From a virus: a stretch of 64,000 nucleotides of DNA. Positions 28,493-41,211 of the stretch are shown piece by piece; position 1 is the first letter of the stretch; each line of letters begins with the position of its first letter. The notes beneath the pieces are model-generated. The model was not told where the DNA came from and did no database searches. It saw only the letters and a list, made by a program, of their open reading frames with translations. The stretch lies in the IMG/VR virus record IMGVR_UViG_3300027896_000013. One strand, 5' to 3'. Made by a program: the position numbers and the translations under genes.

Positions 28493-29200
28493 ATGAGTAA
28501 ATGTGTTATTCCTTTTTCAGGTGGGATGGATTCTACCACGATACTGTATCATGCCATAAAAGAGCATGATACAGTATACGCTGTTTCTATTGCGTACGGT
28601 CAGCGACATCTACAACGCGAGATTACAGCTGCTAATAATATACTGAACGACCTTAATAAGGTTTGTAATTCAATCAGTTATAAAGTTCTTGATTTGTCAT
28701 TCTTTCGAGACGTAGCTAGTATATCATCTCTTACAAACAATAGCATTAATGTAGCTAAAGCGAAAGATGTTATGGGAGACCCGCAAACGGTTAACTATGT
28801 ACCCTTCCGTAATATGATGATGCTGAGTATCTGCTCAGCGTATGCTGAAACAGTTGGCGCAGAAGTTGTATATCACGGTGCAGCTCAAGCAGATAGCGTT
28901 GCTGGATTCTGGGATGGTAGCAAAGAGTTTATTGAAGCTATTAACAATGTAAACATGCTCAATAGACGACACAAGATTAGAATTGAAGCACCACTACTTG
29001 ATAAGAGTAAGGCTGATATCATTAAATGGGGAATGTCTATGGGTGTAGACTATTCTAAGACATGGACTTGTTACGAAGGAAAAGAGCAAGCTTGTGGAGT
29101 TTGTACAGCTTGCTCTTTGAGAATCGGTGGGTTTATGGCAGCCGGTATAAAGGACCCTGTCGAATATTCAGTTAAAATTCCTTGGCCTAACCAGAAGTAA
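28493..29200 (+). CDS. queC: 7-cyano-7-deazaguanine synthase
   Basis: SGGMDS, YGQRH, YVPFRN, KADII, TWTCY...CG.C.ACSLR. Confidence 0.95.
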   Translation: MSKCVIPFSGGMDSTTILYHAIKEHDTVYAVSIAYGQRHLQREITAANNILNDLNKVCNSISYKVLDLSFFRDVASISSLTNNSINVAKAKDVMGDPQTVNYVPFRNMMMLSICSAYAETVGAEVVYHGAAQADSVAGFWDGSKEFIEAINNVNMLNRRHKIRIEAPLLDKSKADIIKWGMSMGVDYSKTWTCYEGKEQACGVCTACSLRIGGFMAAGIKDPVEYSVKIPWPNQK

Positions 29201-29876
29201 TCTGGTTAGGTTCACTTACTACCTCGGCATCGATAGGTTCTTCTGATTTCTTCCTTCTCTTAGATTTACCTTTACTCTTAGCTTTACCGGTAGCTGCTTC
29301 AGATTTATTTACAGCTGCTTCTGCTTCTGCTTTCAATGAGTTTAGATTCTGCTGCAGTACGTTAACATTAACAGTTTCTCCACGTTCAGCCTTTTTCTTT
29401 TGTGCAGCAGTTAAATTGCTTATAGATCTTTGTAACGATTTGATGGTCTTTTGTAAATCCTCAACCACTTTATTATTATCTATTGTGGTACCACCTATAT
29501 TACTAGCTTGTGGTCCTGCAGGTCCACCCTGATGTACACTACCTTGTTGACTTTGAACCGTTTCATAATCTTCAATAGCATTAAGAAAAATCTGTCCAAT
29601 ATCACCTGGTATCTCTTGAGAGTATTGAGTTTCACCTAAGATACGTTCAATAGTCTGACGTATGTTAGTTATCTGTTGTCTAGGATTGCGAGCTAGTTCA
29701 GATAGTGTTCGAGATGTAGAGGTATCAACTGTTTGTGATTGTTTAAAGAAATCTATAAGTTGCTGGCCTGTCGCACTTACATCCGCTGTTGGTTGAGGTT
29801 GTTGAGCAGGCGCTGCAGCTGCAGCAGCATTTGCTACAGCCTCTCTATAAATCGATCTTGCGTCAAATCTTAGCAT
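29187..29876 (-). CDS. putative internal head protein
   Basis: MLRFDARSIYRE then A/P/Q-rich, coiled coil and basic tail. Confidence 0.6.
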   Translation of the reverse strand: MLRFDARSIYREAVANAAAAAAPAQQPQPTADVSATGQQLIDFFKQSQTVDTSTSRTLSELARNPRQQITNIRQTIERILGETQYSQEIPGDIGQIFLNAIEDYETVQSQQGSVHQGGPAGPQASNIGGTTIDNNKVVEDLQKTIKSLQRSISNLTAAQKKKAERGETVNVNVLQQNLNSLKAEAEAAVNKSEAATGKAKSKGKSKRRKKSEEPIDAEVVSEPNQITSG

Positions 29877-29879
29877 AAA

Positions 29880-30347
29880 TTAAGTTGGTTGCTGTGCAGG
29901 TACTGCAGCTGGTTGAGCTGGCTGAACAGCTTGAGTATTATCCACGGGTACCGCCTCAGGTTGAGGAGCTGGTTGAGCTGTTTGAGTGTTTATCCACGCT
30001 TCAAATTCATTATATACTTTAGATACCTCTTCAGGTGTATTCTTCAATAACCCAGTCAGCGTCGGGGATTGATCTGCTTTTAGACCAACATATTTTTCAA
30101 AATATGTTACTAGGTTACCTACAGTTACACGCTTATCTCTCTGGGTTCGTAACCACGCTCTAAAGCTATCATAAGCCTTATTAACGTTAGCCTTAAAATC
30201 TTTACTCTGCTGTCCACCTACTCTACCTGTGGATGTAGGTGAGAGTTTACTCTGTATAGCCGATCCCATTCTGCTAAAGATGCCAAATGGTTTACCTTCA
30301 GTTACAACTTCATATCGTTCCGCAAGTAATTTTAAATCATTATTCAT
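29880..30347 (-). CDS. putative internal head protein
   Basis: MNNDLKLLAERYEVVTE; P/A/Q-rich tail. Confidence 0.6.
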   Translation of the reverse strand: MNNDLKLLAERYEVVTEGKPFGIFSRMGSAIQSKLSPTSTGRVGGQQSKDFKANVNKAYDSFRAWLRTQRDKRVTVGNLVTYFEKYVGLKADQSPTLTGLLKNTPEEVSKVYNEFEAWINTQTAQPAPQPEAVPVDNTQAVQPAQPAAVPAQQPT

Positions 30348-31335
30348 ATGAACCTCTTACATCCGTTTTACCACCCATCGTTTGTCTTTCAAGGTCGCTG
30401 AAGACATCATCATGGCGCTCATCTTCATCTGGTTTATCTAGAACAGGTATATGTCTCTCATCGTTCTCATCCTCACCACTATCCTCTGTAATAGCACCAA
30501 TAGCTAGTAAGTCCTTAACAGCTTTAGTAGCGGTATCCCAAGGCATTTCGAGCTTATTAATTAGATCAGCTCCTTTTATAGTAGCACCTTTACCAACATT
30601 GCTTATCATGCGATGACGAGCGATTTTTGCTTCCATCTTACGTTCACGGTTAGCTATTTTATTAAAAGCATTATCTGGTACTTCATCCTCAATATAATAG
30701 GTATTGCTGAGACTCCATTGAGCACCTCTAGTTATAGCAGATACTCTCGGGATAGCTATATCAGCTTCAGTTTCAACAGCCTTAGGAGCGACTTCAGGTG
30801 CTTTTATAACCTCACCAAGAGCATCTAGAATAGCGCTGTCATGCGACGCTCTCTTTATTTTAATAGTAGATGTTCTTACCCCGGCACTCTCTCTAGATTT
30901 AATCGGCAATACTCCAATAATATCATTCATTATAACACGCGCAGCATGGCCAGCCGCAGTATTAGCAGCACTTTGCGGTAAGTTACAAACGTCAACTATA
31001 ATTTTCTTAACCTCTTCCTTAAACTCCTCCGGGTCACCAGGGTAATATAAATCATATTGTCTACCACCTACGCTATGAGGTTCTGCAGTAAATACATTCT
31101 TCTTGACTCTATCAAGAATCTGAGTTACCATATCAACAAGATCTCTGCCAGTTTGTTGAGCAGTTTTACCTATTTGATATCCACGAGGAGCAGGTTGACC
31201 CTTCTCCATTGGCTGCTTTATAGTGTTTATTTTAGTAGCTGTTCCAGCTGGATCATAATCACCACTATAGACTGGTGACCATTCTTTTAATACAGAGTTG
31301 TATTTTTCTGATAGTATTTTATAATCAGTATTCAT
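30340..31335 (-). CDS. putative internal head protein
   Basis: MNTDYKILSEKYNSVLKE; TAAATA at 31354-31359. Confidence 0.6.
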   Translation of the reverse strand: MNTDYKILSEKYNSVLKEWSPVYSGDYDPAGTATKINTIKQPMEKGQPAPRGYQIGKTAQQTGRDLVDMVTQILDRVKKNVFTAEPHSVGGRQYDLYYPGDPEEFKEEVKKIIVDVCNLPQSAANTAAGHAARVIMNDIIGVLPIKSRESAGVRTSTIKIKRASHDSAILDALGEVIKAPEVAPKAVETEADIAIPRVSAITRGAQWSLSNTYYIEDEVPDNAFNKIANRERKMEAKIARHRMISNVGKGATIKGADLINKLEMPWDTATKAVKDLLAIGAITEDSGEDENDERHIPVLDKPDEDERHDDVFSDLERQTMGGKTDVRGSYE

Positions 31336-31397
31336 TTGAGTAAAGCTTTGAAGTATTTATTCTTGATGTTTGTGTATTTGCACGTATAATAACATGT

Positions 31398-31430
31398 ATG
31401 AACTTCAAACCATATAGAAAGGAAGGGTAA
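31398..31430 (+). CDS. putative leaderless uORF MNFKPYRKEG
   Basis: ATG 7 nt after TATAAT (31385-31390) of TTGATG-16-TATAAT; the stop lies 4 nt before the ATT of the next gene. Confidence 0.4.
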   Translation: MNFKPYRKEG

Positions 31431-31434
31431 ATCT

Positions 31435-32103
31435 ATTTGCGCTATATTTGCATCCCCAATGTTTTCCGAGTTTAAAGAGCTCTACAAGCTAAATCAGAGT
31501 AGAGGTAACGCAGCTCTTGGTGTCTTACTTCTGTCCAAGTCACCACAATGTGTAGGCTATGTAACGTTAAAATTCGAAGGAGTTGTCGACCTCGACAAAG
31601 AGCTCGCTGAATATAAGTTAGATGACATATATTATTTTGTCGGTCATACACAAGCACCAACATCCGCAGCCCAATCATTTAATCATAGAACTTCTCACCC
31701 GTTTACATACGGATCCTGGATTGTTGCACATAATGGTATATTGACAAATTTTGACAAGCTGAAACAAGATGTACCTGTGGGTAGGTATAATATTGTTGAT
31801 AGCTCTATAATACCAGCCATGCTGCATCAACGCTGCACCAAATCAGATGATATAACGTCAGTTACGCAAGTCTTAGGTGAGTTAGAAGGTACACATGCAA
31901 CATGGATATACAATATACAAACACAGAGGTTGTATATCTCGAGGTGTGGTAGTGTACTCTACGCAAATCAAGATAAGTGTGTATTCTCATCTGTACCAAC
32001 AGAGGATATGGAAGAGTTGCAAGATGGTACGTTATATATTAAACTTGATAAAATATGCAGTGTAAGCAAGTTTAAGAACAATTCACCTTTTTATATAGTA
32101 TGA
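31435..32103 (+). CDS. class II (Ntn) glutamine amidotransferase, probable ATT start
   Basis: In-frame ATT-TGC-GCT-ATA-TTT gives (M)CAIF upstream of the track start; N.SRG, GHTQAPT, SHPF, VAHNGILTN, VDS. Confidence 0.85.
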   Translation: MCAIFASPMFSEFKELYKLNQSRGNAALGVLLLSKSPQCVGYVTLKFEGVVDLDKELAEYKLDDIYYFVGHTQAPTSAAQSFNHRTSHPFTYGSWIVAHNGILTNFDKLKQDVPVGRYNIVDSSIIPAMLHQRCTKSDDITSVTQVLGELEGTHATWIYNIQTQRLYISRCGSVLYANQDKCVFSSVPTEDMEELQDGTLYIKLDKICSVSKFKNNSPFYIV

Positions 32104-32768
32104 AAACAGTAATCATATCAGCTACCAAGTCAAACGACATCAGCAAGACCATCTTGTATCAGAGTCTTCAATCGCTCACTACCAGAAATGTTTCTTTTAC
32201 ATATGAGTTTGAAAAGAACAACTCAACAGGTTTAAGCAAAGTGTATAACAAATATATTGAGCAATATGCAGATCAAACTGATTGTATGATATTTGCTCAT
32301 GATGATGTCTACATAGACGACGCCTTCTTTATCGATAAAATTGAAGACAGTTTTTGTAACGGTTACGATATCATAGGCGTAGCTGGTGGTGTTTCACCTA
32401 ATATCAAAGCACCGACATTGTGGCATATAATGTGCGGCCAGGGTAACTTGAGAGGCGCAGCTGGACACTTCAGCCCTGATATGTCTGCGATACAGATTAC
32501 ATCATTTGGTCCAATGCCTGCAAGAGTAGCTTTGCTTGATGGTTTGTTTATTGCTGTAAATACTAAAAAGATTCGTGAAGCTGGTTGGAAGTTTAATGAA
32601 AACTACGACTTCCATCTTTACGATCTTGCAAGTTGCTTAGATGCTAATAAAAAGAAGCTCAGAATGGGTGTAATACCAATACATTTGATTCATAAATCAC
32701 CAGGTCTTACATCGTTCACTGATTGTTTTAATACCAATCAGGCCAAATTTCTTGCGGAATATTCATAA
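32100..32768 (+). CDS. glycosyltransferase family 2-like
   Basis: GLSKVYN, FAHDDV, IGVAG, LLDGLFIAV, FHLYD. Confidence 0.8.
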   Translation: MKTVIISATKSNDISKTILYQSLQSLTTRNVSFTYEFEKNNSTGLSKVYNKYIEQYADQTDCMIFAHDDVYIDDAFFIDKIEDSFCNGYDIIGVAGGVSPNIKAPTLWHIMCGQGNLRGAAGHFSPDMSAIQITSFGPMPARVALLDGLFIAVNTKKIREAGWKFNENYDFHLYDLASCLDANKKKLRMGVIPIHLIHKSPGLTSFTDCFNTNQAKFLAEYS

Positions 32769-34102
32769 TGAATTTAAATTTAGACCAATTTGAAACACTA
32801 TTGACGTATAAATGTCTAACGGATGAAGTTTATCTTTCATCAATTATAGACCATTTAAAACCTGAATACTTTAAGAGTAAGGAGATTCAAGCTGTACTTG
32901 GTATCATTACAGAATTTTATAGTAAGCGTAGCGTTGCACCAACTCTCACAGAGATTCGAAACTATCTATCAACCGAGACACTAAAGAATCAATTTAAAAC
33001 CGTAGTTGGTTCTTTCACAGGTATAGATAAAAACCTAAACACTGATGAGTTGTATGAGAATACAGAGACATTTTTAAAAGAGCGAGCAGTTTTTCACACA
33101 CTGTCTAGCGTAGTCAATAAAGTATCAGGTAAAGATGCAATAGACACCGCGGATATTCTAAGCCGTTTTGAGAAATCTTGTAATATATGTCTGAATTACG
33201 ACATAGGTCTTGACCTCGTACCTGGTATCGGTAGAGTGTATGATGACTTAAAGAGAACAACACCTTATATCGGTACCGGTTGGAAGTGGTTAGACGGTAA
33301 ACTCGATGGTGGATTTCTTGAGAATGGTAGAGCTTTGTATGTATTTGCCGGTGAAACTAACGTCGGTAAGAGTATATTCCTTGGTAATATAGCTTCAGCT
33401 ATAGCTTCTACAAACAAAACAGTACTGTTAGTGTCATTAGAAATGTCTGAGATGATGTATGCTAGAAGAATATGTACAAACATCACAAAGATACCTATAA
33501 GCAGGCTCCGTGACGAAGCAGATGTACTCAAAGTAAAGGTAGCTGAGTTCGCTCAACAGAAACCAGCAGCTAAGATAATAATCAAGGAGTTTCCACCTAG
33601 CACACTCACTGTCAGTAGTCTAAAAGCTTATATTCAAAAGCTGGTTAACAAGGGTATTAAACTAGACGCTATTGTAGTGGACTATGTTAACCTCTTACAT
33701 TCACCGACGGGTAACAATTCATATGAACGAGTGAAGTATAGTGCTGAGCAACTACGAGCACTTTCATATATTTTTAGTTGTCCGGTTATTACTGCAACAC
33801 AACTAAATCGTAGTGGTTACGGTATCAATGAACCAAAGCTTGAGACTATATCTGAAAGTATGGCGCTACCAAATACAGCCGACTTTATGTGTGGTATCTG
33901 GCAGGATGATACCGATCGACAGCTAGGAGTCATTAAGATGAGCTTAATGAAAAACCGTTTCGGACCCAATTTTGGTACCTGTAATATGAGAATTGATTAC
34001 GGTACCTTAACAGTATATGAAGATAACGATGTAAGCAAAACAGAATCAAGTAATTCTACTCTATCAACATTAGCAGCCTTGAGCGTTGATAAAGGCAAGT
34101 GA
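32768..34102 (+). CDS. gp41: replicative DnaB-like helicase gp41
   Basis: GETNVGKS, SLEMSE, IKEFPP, VDYVNL, TATQLNR, SES, KNRFG. Confidence 0.95.
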   Translation: MNLNLDQFETLLTYKCLTDEVYLSSIIDHLKPEYFKSKEIQAVLGIITEFYSKRSVAPTLTEIRNYLSTETLKNQFKTVVGSFTGIDKNLNTDELYENTETFLKERAVFHTLSSVVNKVSGKDAIDTADILSRFEKSCNICLNYDIGLDLVPGIGRVYDDLKRTTPYIGTGWKWLDGKLDGGFLENGRALYVFAGETNVGKSIFLGNIASAIASTNKTVLLVSLEMSEMMYARRICTNITKIPISRLRDEADVLKVKVAEFAQQKPAAKIIIKEFPPSTLTVSSLKAYIQKLVNKGIKLDAIVVDYVNLLHSPTGNNSYERVKYSAEQLRALSYIFSCPVITATQLNRSGYGINEPKLETISESMALPNTADFMCGIWQDDTDRQLGVIKMSLMKNRFGPNFGTCNMRIDYGTLTVYEDNDVSKTESSNSTLSTLAALSVDKGK

Positions 34103-39926: not shown

Positions 39927-40117
39927 ATGCACCAACAATTAAGCCGATAATTATCACATCACCGATTAGTGGCCAGCCCTGCAGACCGACGCTAGCTACC
40001 TATATTCGCGGTGGTAAGAAGATTACTGAAGCTTCTTATATTGACCCCGCTTCAGGTGCCTTTATTAGAAAAGGTATTGTTAGCGTTGAGGATGTCGCAA
40101 AAGAAGAGAAGAAATAA
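39923..40117 (+). CDS. small late protein
   Basis: TAAGTA (39910-39915) 7 nt upstream; SPISG...DPASG knuckle-like turns. Confidence 0.65.
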   Translation: MNAPTIKPIIITSPISGQPCRPTLATYIRGGKKITEASYIDPASGAFIRKGIVSVEDVAKEEKK

Positions 40118-40155
40118 CTCTTGCACTTCTATTAGATACTTCGTATAATTCCAGG

Positions 40156-41211
40156 GTGAGTTTACCTGAGGAATATATAATTCAGAAATTCTTTTCTTAC
40201 AATGGTGGTGTAAAATATCTTAAGCACCAGCATGTATATCAAGGATCATGTTACATCTGTAAAGAAGGTAACTCGTGGCTAAAAAAGAAGCGTTGTTACT
40301 ATCTCACTAAGGAAGATGCAATTTGTTGTCATAATTGCGGGTGGTATAGCAAACCGTTAAAATGGATAATGGAGGTAACAGGTTCATCATATGCTGAGGT
40401 GATGAAAGAAGCAAAGACTTTTGAGTTCATACCAAAAACTTTAGAAGATACTGTTAAGGTTAAACCTAAGATAGCGGAAAAACTACCACATGATTCAATA
40501 AATCTTCTCGATAAATCTCAGGTAATGTTCTACAAAGATGTTCCAGTGGTTCGAACGGTTATAAACCTAATGATGAAGCGTAGGCTTGCTACTGCTATTA
40601 ATAGACCGAAGGGTTTATACGTCAGTTTAACAGATAAGGTGCATGCCAATAGGCTTATATTACCGTTTTATAATGAGGTCGGTGATGTTGTATTTTATCA
40701 ATCTAGAGGTGTACTTGATACTGATATTGCAAGCAGACCGAAGTATATCAGTAAAATCGGTGGCGACAAAACACTCTTTAATATCGATAAAATCACCAAT
40801 GATTTTGATAGTATTTTCATTTTTGAAGGCCCTATAAATTCGTTCTTTTGTATTAACGGTGTAGCTGTTGGAGGTATTCAAGAGAAGAGTTACAACAACT
40901 ACACACCTATGCAGGCGAAGCAGATACAGAAATATCCATTACATCGAAAGATATGGGTATTAGACTCTCAATGGATAGATACCGCTAGCGCAAATAAATC
41001 ACAGCGATTGATTGAATCAGGTGAGTCGGTTTTTATATGGCCGAAAGACAAAGGTACCAAATATAAAGATTTTAACGATATTGCTATTGCAGAGGGTATA
41101 GATAAAATTGACCCCCAGTTTGTATTTGATAATACACACCAGGGGTTAAATGCTAAACTAAAGCTAGCTGAGATATTAAGAGTTAGAGGAGATAAGGTAC
41201 CCCTTCATTGA
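40156..41211 (+). CDS. gp61: DNA primase gp61
   Basis: CYIC...CHNCG zinc finger, RLILPF, YQSR, PKY, FEGPI, VLD, KDFND. Confidence 0.92.
   Translation: MSLPEEYIIQKFFSYNGGVKYLKHQHVYQGSCYICKEGNSWLKKKRCYYLTKEDAICCHNCGWYSKPLKWIMEVTGSSYAEVMKEAKTFEFIPKTLEDTVKVKPKIAEKLPHDSINLLDKSQVMFYKDVPVVRTVINLMMKRRLATAINRPKGLYVSLTDKVHANRLILPFYNEVGDVVFYQSRGVLDTDIASRPKYISKIGGDKTLFNIDKITNDFDSIFIFEGPINSFFCINGVAVGGIQEKSYNNYTPMQAKQIQKYPLHRKIWVLDSQWIDTASANKSQRLIESGESVFIWPKDKGTKYKDFNDIAIAEGIDKIDPQFVFDNTHQGLNAKLKLAEILRVRGDKVPLH

What the first reader, a model, noticed from the sequence alone, without database searches (positions are those of the whole stretch)
31363..31461. Amidotransferase probably starts at ATT, behind a leaderless uORF that contains a strong SD
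Seen: the called ORF (31459) lacks the N-terminal Cys. Eight codons upstream in frame is ATT-TGC-GCT-ATA-TTT (31435), giving M-C-A-I-F, and no ATG/GTG/TTG occurs in frame back to the TGA at 31399. AGAAAGGAAGG lies about 9 nt before the ATT, the clearest SD-like element I saw in a window that otherwise mostly lacks them. It sits inside a 10-codon uORF (MNFKPYRKEG, 31398-31430) that starts at the predicted TSS. Known: Ntn amidotransferases need Cys as residue 1 after Met removal, and AUU initiation (infC) is sensitive to IF3. Inference: this is a deliberate low-level or IF3/re-initiation-gated control on the enzyme and its downstream glycosyltransferase-helicase operon.
Basis: partly seen in the sequence, partly recalled or inferred. 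Interest (0 to 1): 0.7.

Follow-up and report, generated by a model that had tools for sequence, protein, structure and literature searches.

The report
Phage amidotransferase gene starting at ATT
A glutamine amidotransferase gene of an uncultured T4-like phage really does begin at the rare start codon ATT, behind almost the only ribosome-binding site in the genome; about half of its relatives in other phages do the same, and the rest use a leaderless ATG, so gene callers mis-call about half of this family.

Summary

**Sequence.** The protein is a stand-alone class II (Ntn) glutamine amidotransferase. Its family begins M-C-[AG]-I-F, and the window reads ATT-TGC-GCT-ATA-TTT.

**Relatives.**
- Of 82 homologous loci (39-54% identity), 42 have ATT before the Cys. 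All 42 carry a strong SD 7-9 nt upstream (11 nt for the window's AAGGA).
- The other 40 have ATG. 37 of them lack an SD and sit 6-9 nt after TATAAT, so they are leaderless.
- No GTG, TTG, ATA or ATC occurs at this position.
- Several ATT genes have an in-frame stop 6-21 nt upstream and no ATG anywhere in the ORF.
- The tree needs at least 5 ATG/ATT switches.

**Genome context.** The phage group barely uses SDs: 2 of 77 window genes, and 0 of 464 flanking genes at -10 kcal/mol or below.

**uORF.** It is not universal; most ATT loci lack one. Its geometry (5'-terminal ATG, SD inside, TAA, 4 nt, start) recurs in two other leader types. In L204 it is visibly a duplicated copy of the gene's own leaderless start. 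The arrangement resembles thrS-infC (UAA GGU AUU).

**Open.** IF3 gating is untested. New variant of a known kind.

Earlier scan notes on this place are first-reader repeats without follow-up.

The parts
31363..31390 (+). Sigma-70-type promoter TTGATG-N16-TATAAT. The -10 box is at 31385-31390 and the expected +1 is about 31397-31398.
   Evidence: Promoter scan, 10/12 matches. It aligns with the promoter of the type II leaders (A2).
31398..31430 (+). 10-codon uORF (MNFKPYRKEG, stop TAA 31428-31430) that starts at the predicted 5' end of the mRNA. It is in the +1 frame relative to the enzyme.
   Evidence: Its ATG is 7 nt after the -10 box, in the range (about 5-8 nt) seen for the window's leaderless genes. 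Counterparts exist in L204 (MYAIFCRKEG) and in the type II loci (MNNIYSNRRGG).
31417..31427 (+). Shine-Dalgarno element GAAAGGAAGGG inside the uORF, 7 nt before the ATT.
   Evidence: Duplex with the anti-SD is -8.3 kcal/mol, in the top 0.5% of window positions. All 42 ATT loci have an SD; 41 at 7-9 nt, the window's AAGGA at 11 nt.
31435..31437 (+). ATT initiation codon of the amidotransferase.
   Evidence: The triplet is ATT in 42 loci and never ATA or ATC. In relatives there are in-frame stops 6-21 nt upstream, and some ORFs contain no ATG at all.
31435..32103 (+). Corrected CDS of the stand-alone class II (Ntn) glutamine amidotransferase, 222 codons. It was called from 31459 as 214 aa.
   Evidence: Pfam GATase_6 at 30.5 bits against a cut-off of 27. 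phrog_12378 aligns from residue 1. The family profile matches the E. coli GlmS glutaminase domain from residue 1. Alignment A1.
32100..32768 (+). Glycosyltransferase (Glyco_tranf_2_5). Its start overlaps the amidotransferase stop (ATGA).
32768..34102 (+). gp41-like DnaB helicase. Its start overlaps the glycosyltransferase stop (TAATG).

Best explanation
The amidotransferase is translated from AUU 31435. Initiator tRNA still inserts fMet, and removal of Met exposes the catalytic Cys1.

This phage group normally translates leaderless or SD-less mRNAs, and leaderless initiation needs AUG. A near-cognate AUU can therefore only work if the ribosome is held by SD/anti-SD pairing. That explains why ATT and a strong SD always occur together, and why the SD is nearly unique in the genome.

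The SD-plus-AUU pair is an alternative solution to the leaderless AUG used by the other half of the family. It probably gives a similarly modest, start-limited output for the first gene of a translationally coupled operon (amidotransferase, glycosyltransferase, gp41).

In this window the SD sits inside a 10-codon uORF that begins at the mRNA 5' end and stops 4 nt before the AUU. Ribosomes that load on the 5'-AUG in the phage's usual leaderless mode would terminate on top of the SD and can re-initiate at AUU. 30S subunits can also bind de novo. This is the thrS-stop/infC-AUU layout.

**Shown here:** the ATT start, the SD linkage, the recurrence in relatives, the uORF geometry and its origin by duplication.

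**Inferred:** the TSS, re-initiation, the expression level and any IF3 sensitivity.
For: 1. The family N-terminus is M-C-[AG]-I-F, and the window aligns as I-C-A-I-F. The profile matches the GlmS glutaminase domain from Cys1.
2. Across 82 loci, ATT occurs in 42, all with an SD of at least 5 nt; 41 at 7-9 nt spacing, the window's AAGGA at 11 nt. ATG occurs in 40, and only 3 of those have an SD.
3. Anti-SD duplex medians are -11.5 kcal/mol for the ATT class and +0.7 for the ATG class.
4. Among 464 neighbouring genes in the relatives the median is -0.1, and none is at or below -10.
5. Codons 2-7 vary synonymously while Cys, Ile and Phe stay fixed. The start triplet is ATT in 25 of 25 distinct N-terminal strings, whereas the Ile codon 4 is ATA 18 / ATT 7.
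6. In-frame stops lie 6-21 nt upstream in many ATT loci. L003, L055, L062, L067, L081 and L083 have no in-frame ATG in the whole ORF.
7. The tree needs 7 ATG/ATT changes, and well-supported branches alone force at least 5. The window sits in a 98%-supported clade with four leaderless-ATG loci.
8. The uORF layout (TAA, 4 nt, start) is shared by the window, L204 and the type II loci.
9. L204 equals a leaderless L205/L214-type gene plus a 37-nt insertion, and its uORF begins with a copy of the gene's own start.
10. The leader is unstructured, z = +1.2.
11. Literature: leaderless mRNAs need AUG, and SD pairing helps near-cognate starts (PMC8459731). The infC junction UAA GGU AUU is translated by re-initiation plus de novo initiation (PMC3592434). 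5'-terminal uAUGs bind 70S ribosomes and can influence the downstream cistron (PMC4965119).
Against: - There are no reads, no TSS map and no proteomic N-terminus for this phage.
- The window's exact leader has no second assembly.
- The window's SD is the weakest of the ATT class.
- An in-frame ATG lies 8 codons downstream, so on its own the window is ambiguous.
- Most ATT loci have no uORF, so re-initiation is dispensable for ATT use.
- Near-identical leader cassettes occur in different protein clades (type II; window versus L204). Some 'independent switches' may therefore be recombination of one module rather than new mutations.
- The host and its initiation machinery are unknown.
Confidence: 0.85

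Rival explanations
1. The uORF is a passive relic. AUU is used only by de novo 30S binding to the SD, and translation of the uORF is irrelevant or even inhibitory because it occludes the SD.
For: About 34 of 42 ATT loci have the short leader TATAAT-N5-AGGAGG-N7/8-ATT, with no room for a uORF. The uORF peptide is not conserved apart from the residues that the SD itself imposes. In L204 the uORF is visibly a leftover duplicated gene start.
Against: The frame, the stop and the 4-nt gap are kept in three diverged leader types whose lengths differ by exactly 3 nt (37 versus 40 nt). The uORF ATG sits at the distance from the -10 box that genuine leaderless genes use, so ribosomes should load there.
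Confidence: 0.4
2. The SD-AUU module is a true regulatory gate that responds to IF3 level or ribosome state (for example phage bS21). It would time or throttle the operon.
For: AUU starts, leaderless starts and re-initiation are all lowered by IF3 in E. coli (PMC2268962; PMC8459731). The stop-gap-AUU layout copies infC. ATT is the only alternative seen, never GTG or TTG. Relatives encode bS21.
Against: No phage IF3 was found. Nearly all genes of this phage are leaderless and would be equally IF3-sensitive, so IF3 would not single out this gene. Nothing here measures regulation. Simple compensation of expression level explains the same pattern.
Confidence: 0.25
3. Translation starts at ATG 31459 as called, giving a Cys-less protein. 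The upstream CAIFASP is untranslated.
For: It is the first canonical start, and gene callers chose it (P0002).
Against: Cys1 and the CAIF motif are conserved at the amino-acid level with synonymous variation. Relatives have no such downstream ATG, the next one being at codon 135-228 or absent. No SD or promoter fits 31459.
Confidence: 0.04
4. The ATT is a sequencing or assembly error or a private mutation of ATG, or the gene is a pseudogene.
For: Only one assembly of this exact leader is available.
Against: 41 other loci from many samples have ATT. It is always paired with an SD, and the ORFs are intact and under purifying selection.
Confidence: 0.03
5. Translation starts further upstream, and a propeptide is removed to expose Cys1, as in Bacillus subtilis PurF.
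For: Gene callers extended some relatives upstream (P0073, P0075, P0090). Autoprocessed propeptides are known in this enzyme class (general knowledge).
Against: The window has no canonical in-frame start before TGA 31399. In relatives, in-frame stops lie 6-21 nt upstream. The extended calls begin at a TTG inside the -35 box, or between the -10 box and +1 of the promoter.
Confidence: 0.03

Closest known systems
E. coli infC (IF3) AUU start after the thrS stop (UAA GGU AUU)
   Same: An AUU start with the SD inside the preceding ORF. The upstream stop lies 3-4 nt before the AUU, and translation can come from re-initiation plus de novo binding (PMC3592434).
   Different: Here the upstream ORF is a 10-codon leaderless uORF rather than a full gene. 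The product is an amidotransferase rather than IF3, so there is no obvious autoregulatory loop. The genome is otherwise SD-free.
E. coli pcnB: expression limited by an AUU start
   Same: A near-cognate AUU is used to keep an enzyme at a low level (Binns and Masters 2002, as cited in PMC3592434).
   Different: This is a phage family in which the AUU state alternates with a leaderless AUG state across relatives.
5'-terminal uAUG mRNAs of E. coli (Beck, Fleming and Janssen 2016)
   Same: The mRNA has both a 5'-terminal AUG that can bind 70S ribosomes and a conventional SD-led downstream gene. The uORF can influence the downstream cistron (PMC4965119).
   Different: Here the downstream start is AUU, the uORF carries the SD and stops 4 nt before the start. 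Its origin by duplication of the gene's own leaderless start is visible.
Class II (Ntn) glutamine amidotransferase domains of GlmS, PurF and AsnB
   Same: Cys1 nucleophile, an HNG oxyanion motif and a conserved Asp. The profile match to the GlmS glutaminase domain starts at residue 1.
   Different: This is a stand-alone domain of about 220 aa with no synthase domain. It lies in a T4-like replication module, next to a glycosyltransferase and 2 kb from QueC. Its acceptor is unknown.

Membership tests
Class II (Ntn) glutamine amidotransferase | Catalytic Cys immediately after the initiator residue (Cys1 after Met removal) | tested here: met
   TGC at 31438 directly follows ATT 31435. Cys is present wherever the N-terminus is included: 30 of 36 rows of A1, the rest being truncated calls, and 52 of 52 distinct N-terminal strings.
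Class II (Ntn) glutamine amidotransferase | Profile match above the curated cut-off | tested here: met
   PF13522 GATase_6 scores 30.5 bits against a cut-off of 27. GATase_7 scores 24.1 against 25, just below. The family profile matches the GlmS glutaminase domain at E = 1.4e-13.
Class II (Ntn) glutamine amidotransferase | Oxyanion Asn-Gly and the glutamine-binding Asp and Arg | tested here: met
   H99-N100-G101 and D122 are invariant. R23-G24 is nearly invariant in A1. HNG and D align with the HNG and D of GlmS. The roles of these residues come from general knowledge of GlmS and PurF.
Class II (Ntn) glutamine amidotransferase | Glutaminase activity coupled to an acceptor (synthase) partner | not testable with these tools
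   There is no fused synthase domain. QueC and a glycosyltransferase are neighbours.
infC-type AUU initiation | AUU is the functional start codon | tested here: met
   Comparative evidence only: 42 loci, flanking in-frame stops, ORFs without any ATG, and a start triplet that is never ATA or ATC. There is no direct protein or ribosome data.
infC-type AUU initiation | SD upstream within the preceding ORF, whose stop lies a few nt before the AUU | tested here: met
   SD at 31417-31427 inside the uORF, TAA at 31428-31430, a 4-nt gap, ATT at 31435.
infC-type AUU initiation | IF3-dependent discrimination or regulation | not testable with these tools
No phage IF3 was found in 3 related records.
5'-uAUG / leaderless uORF mRNAs | AUG at the mRNA 5' terminus | tested here: inconclusive
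   The TSS is only predicted. ATG 31398 is 7 nt after TATAAT, in the range (about 5-8 nt) seen for the leaderless genes of the window.

The most novel reading that the evidence does not exclude
The single SD in an otherwise SD-free, leaderless phage genome, paired with AUU, is a sensor of ribosome or initiation-factor state (IF3, or the phage-encoded bS21 that sits next to the anti-SD). The phage would use it to time a DNA-modification and replication operon. The module would also be a mobile cassette exchanged between phages.
Probability: 0.15. Interest if true: 0.85.

Novelty: new variant of a known kind. Interest (0 to 1): 0.66.

Why it matters
1. **Annotation.** Gene callers do not call ATT. 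About half of this widespread phage family is therefore truncated, wrongly extended or missed. In the protein database 106 of 120 hits begin MC, whereas at the DNA level 42 of 82 loci are ATT. The window's own call lacks the catalytic Cys.

2. **Mechanism.** This is a natural, replicated comparison showing a rule so far drawn mainly from reporters: leaderless mRNAs need AUG, and near-cognate starts need an SD. The intermediate state (SD plus ATG) is rare, and the dead state (ATT without an SD) is absent.

3. **Evolution.** It shows how a uORF-coupled, infC-like start can arise from duplication of a leaderless gene start.

4. **Host biology.** It shows that the host ribosome of an SD-free phage can still use SD pairing.

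5. **Experiment.** It offers a compact test system for re-initiation and for IF3 or bS21 effects.

Tried and rejected
- **Close relatives of the window's leader.** A DNA pattern in viral contigs gave only chance hits. A looser pattern recovered only the known type II loci. The single metagenome scan gave unrelated SD-ATG amidotransferases. P0026-like loci are absent from IMG/VR. The called protein P0002 is not on record for a contig look-up. No second assembly of the window's exact ATT was therefore found.
- **Cultured phages.** There is no DNA match, and only two weak protein matches in Vibrio phages.
- **A dedicated initiator tRNA reading AUU.** The window has no tRNAs. The ATT-class record G004 has Thr, Tyr, Arg, Ile(UAU) and Leu tRNAs only. 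Rejected, although the records are incomplete.
- **A phage IF3.** None was found in three related records.
- **RNA structure hiding the SD or start.** The leader folds no better than shuffled sequences.
- **Other SD plus near-cognate starts in the window.** None lies at the head of a long ORF.
- **The out-of-frame TTG inside ATTTGC.** It opens only a 12-codon frame and cannot make the enzyme. At most it is a competing start.
- **The sign test for SD following ATT on independent tree pairs.** There were too few pairs (3-4 the same way, 0 opposite, p about 0.125). The association therefore rests on the 42/42 versus 3/40 counts and on the several distinct leader sequences.

Full report
**1. What is in the sequence**

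The window is part of an uncultured T4-like phage.
- Neighbouring genes: gp43-type DNA polymerase, UvsX, QueC, gp41-like helicase (31% identical to the cyanophage gp41), a DHH phosphoesterase and gp32.
- G+C is about 38% and there are no tRNAs.

The coordinates in the finding are correct.
- The called ORF begins at ATG 31459.
- In frame upstream are ATT(31435) TGC GCT ATA TTT GCA TCC CCA.
- The frame is closed by TGA at 31399-31401 and contains no ATG, GTG or TTG.
- GAAAGGAAGGG (31417-31427) ends 7 nt before the ATT.
- It lies inside a 10-codon ORF, ATG 31398 to TAA 31428-31430.
- A promoter TTGATG-16-TATAAT (31363-31390, 10 of 12 matches) puts the expected +1 at the uORF ATG.
- The leader RNA is unstructured, z = +1.2.

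**2. The protein needs the upstream codons**

- The extended product hits Pfam GATase_6 above its cut-off, and phrog_12378 aligns from residue 1.
- The search listed 120 of 269 database homologues, and nearly all of those cover 100% of the extended query.
- In alignment A1 the family begins M-C-[AG]-I-F-G-S, and the window aligns as I-C-A-I-F-A-S.
- A profile of A1 matches the glutaminase domain of E. coli GlmS from residue 1 (E = 1.4e-13). The HNG motif and the Asp are aligned.
- This is therefore a stand-alone class II (Ntn) amidotransferase whose nucleophile is the Cys right after the initiator.

**3. ATT is a recurrent, constrained state of the family**

I fetched 83 related loci and read the triplet before the Cys, which could be done in 81 of them plus the window.

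| Start triplet | Loci | With a strict SD (≥5 nt, 5-13 nt spacing) | Median anti-SD duplex |
|---|---|---|---|
| ATT | 42 | 42 | -11.5 kcal/mol |
| ATG | 40 | 3 | +0.7 kcal/mol |

- No locus has GTG, TTG, CTG, ATA or ATC.
- Every ATT locus has an SD (GGAGG, AGGAGG, GAGGAGGG or GGGAGG; the window has AAGGAAGGG). The spacing is 7-9 nt in 41 loci; the scoring script took the window's AAGGA, at 11 nt.
- The ATG loci sit 6-9 nt after TATAAT, behind CTTGAA-N17, so they are leaderless or nearly so.
- Within the ATT class, codons 2-7 vary synonymously (TGC/TGT, ATA/ATT, TTT/TTC, GGN) while Cys, Ile and Phe are invariant. The region is therefore translated.
- The start triplet is ATT in 25 of 25 distinct strings, although the Ile codon 4 is mostly ATA. 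It therefore does not behave as an ordinary Ile codon.
- Many ATT loci have an in-frame stop only 6-21 nt upstream. L003, L055, L062, L067, L081 and L083 have no in-frame ATG in the entire ORF. Nothing but the ATT can start these genes.
- This rules out a sequencing error, a private mutation, a pseudogene and a PurF-like propeptide.
- The upstream 'starts' that gene callers chose in P0073, P0075 and P0090 are TTGs inside the -35 box, or between the -10 box and +1.

**4. The SD is exceptional for these phages**

- In the window only 2 of 77 ATG-started ORFs have a 5-mer SD.
- The amidotransferase SD scores -8.3 kcal/mol, in the top 0.5% of positions, against a gene median of -0.9.
- Among 464 distinct neighbouring genes in the relatives' flanks the median is -0.1, only 0.9% are at or below -8, and none is at or below -10.
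- Many window genes follow TTGA-N17-TATAAT, or a late-type ATAAATA box, by a few nucleotides.
- The phage group therefore runs on leaderless or SD-less initiation and reserves a strong SD for this ATT gene.
- No other long ORF in the window starts with SD plus a near-cognate codon.

**5. Evolution**

- A maximum-likelihood tree of 67 distinct proteins needs 7 ATG/ATT changes, and well-supported branches alone force at least 5.
- The window lies in a 98%-supported clade with four leaderless-ATG loci.
- The independent-pairs test has too few pairs to be significant (3-4 the same way, 0 opposite, p about 0.125).
- The ATT leaders come in several distinct sequence types.
- Intermediates with SD plus ATG exist (L046, L063, L068, L204). 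ATT without an SD never occurs.
- This fits the path leaderless ATG <-> SD-ATG <-> SD-ATT.
- Caveat: the type II leader is nearly identical in three protein clades. The window shares 20 of 21 nt (AGAAAGGAAGGGTAAwTCT) with L204, although the proteins are 48% identical. Leader cassettes are therefore either exchanged by recombination or very strongly constrained, and the number of truly new ATG-to-ATT mutations is lower than the number of switches on the tree.

**6. The uORF**

- Most ATT loci have the short form TATAAT-N5-AGGAGG-N7/8-ATT. The expected +1 then falls at the SD, and there is no uORF.
- Three leader types do have one:

| Leader type | uORF peptide | After the uORF |
|---|---|---|
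| Window | MNFKPYRKEG | TAA, 4 nt, ATT |
| Seven type II loci | MN[IDN][SI]YSNRRGG (MNISYSNRRGG, MNDIYSNRRGG or MNNIYSNRRGG) | TAA, 4 nt, ATT |
| L204 (a 222-kb phage seen in many samples) | MYAIFCRKEG | TAA, 4 nt, ATG |

- The distance from the uORF ATG to the main start is 37, 40 and 37 nt. The uORF frame and stop are therefore preserved.
- The window's promoter and leader align with the type II leader (A2).
- L204 differs from its close leaderless relatives L205 and L214 by a 37-nt insertion placed just after ATG-T-GCTATATTCT. Its uORF starts with a copy of the gene's own M-C-A-I-F codons. This uORF was thus born from a duplication of the leaderless gene start.
- In the window the uORF ATG lies 7 nt after the -10 box. 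The phage's genuine leaderless genes have about 5-8 nt there, mostly 6.

**7. Mechanism**

- *Shown:* the ATT start, its obligatory SD, and the conserved uORF geometry.
- *From the literature:* leaderless mRNAs are highly selective for AUG, and SD pairing stabilises near-cognate starts (PMC8459731).
- The E. coli infC junction is UAA GGU AUU. In reporters it is translated by a sum of re-initiation and de novo initiation, at about a quarter of the AUG level (PMC3592434).
- IF3 overexpression lowers re-initiation (PMC2268962).
- 5'-terminal uAUGs on SD-led mRNAs bind 70S ribosomes and can affect the downstream gene (PMC4965119).
- *Inferred:* in this window ribosomes load on the 5'-AUG, translate ten codons, terminate with the SD under the anti-SD, and re-initiate at AUU 4 nt downstream. 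30S subunits can also bind de novo.
- The net output is modest and sets the flow into the glycosyltransferase and gp41, which follow by ATGA and TAATG overlaps and have no SD of their own.
- Whether AUU is a regulatory gate (IF3, or the bS21 that relatives encode) or simply compensates for the gain of an SD cannot be decided here.
- No phage IF3 and no unusual initiator tRNA was found.

**8. Novelty and verdict**

- AUU starts (infC, pcnB), SD support of near-cognate codons, and 5'-uAUG uORFs are all known.
- I did not find, in three literature searches on AUU/ATT start codons, a phage gene family that alternates many times between a leaderless AUG and an SD-led AUU, in genomes otherwise devoid of SDs, with an infC-like uORF form whose origin by duplication is visible.
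- Practical consequence: at the DNA level half the family is ATT. In the protein database 106 of 120 homologues begin MC, and the ATT genes appear truncated or wrongly extended. The window's own call lacks its catalytic Cys.
The ATT start is very likely (about 0.93). A functional contribution of the uORF is plausible (about 0.5). IF3 gating is speculative (about 0.25).
- Earlier scan notes at this place are first-reader repeats of the same idea without follow-up.

Noticed in passing
window 28493-32768: QueC (192.9 bits) lies 2 kb upstream on the same strand as the stand-alone amidotransferase and a GT-A glycosyltransferase, between UvsX and gp41. The same order recurs in L001, L003 and L204. 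It may be a split Gat plus QueC or a 7-deazaguanine/sugar DNA-modification route. No dpdA, folE, queD or queE was examined.
   Followed up: partly
whole window, e.g. 4640, 11288, 13175, 15492, 16839, 22189, 42039, 60137 (early type); 8618, 14291, 44198, 47517, 49941 (late type): There is genome-wide leaderless architecture. Early genes follow TTGA-N17-TATAAT by about 6 nt, and late genes follow an ATAAATA box by 4-8 nt. Only 2 of 77 ORFs have a 5-mer SD.
   Followed up: partly
window 40093-41211: The ORF called from ATG 40369 has a 92-codon in-frame extension without any ATG, and about 440 nt of apparently empty DNA lies before it. ATT 40321 follows AAGGAAG by 6 nt (ATT-TGT-TGT...). This may be a second non-ATG start. 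There was no Pfam hit.
   Followed up: no
L003 5605-5747; G001:C1:15868-16029; G002:C1:89444-89584: Related phages encode a ribosomal protein bS21 homologue (60.8 bits in G001). None of three records encodes IF3.
   Followed up: partly
L024, L037, L044, L048, L055, L058, L060 (about -60 to -1 of the ATT): A nearly identical promoter-uORF-SD-ATT cassette sits in front of amidotransferase genes from three different protein clades. It also has a different upstream neighbour from the usual divergent gene. This suggests modular exchange of the 5' region.
   Followed up: partly
L217 1581-1674 (G004): A phage tRNA called Ile(UAU) is 94 nt long, which is unusually long. It may contain an intron or be a mis-call.
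   Followed up: no
window 31436-31474: ATT-TGC always creates an overlapping out-of-frame TTG (A-TTG-C), at slightly longer SD spacing. In the window it opens a 12-codon frame and could compete with the AUU. In addition, the ATT class prefers TGC at codon 2 (17 of 25) while the ATG class prefers TGT (22 of 27). This is unexplained and may simply reflect shared ancestry.
   Followed up: no
window 29187-31335 (minus strand): Three antisense genes without Pfam hits are wedged between QueC and the amidotransferase. The start of the last one (CAT at 31333-31335) lies about 30 nt upstream of the -35 box of the amidotransferase promoter, and in most relatives it abuts the -35 box directly.
   Followed up: no
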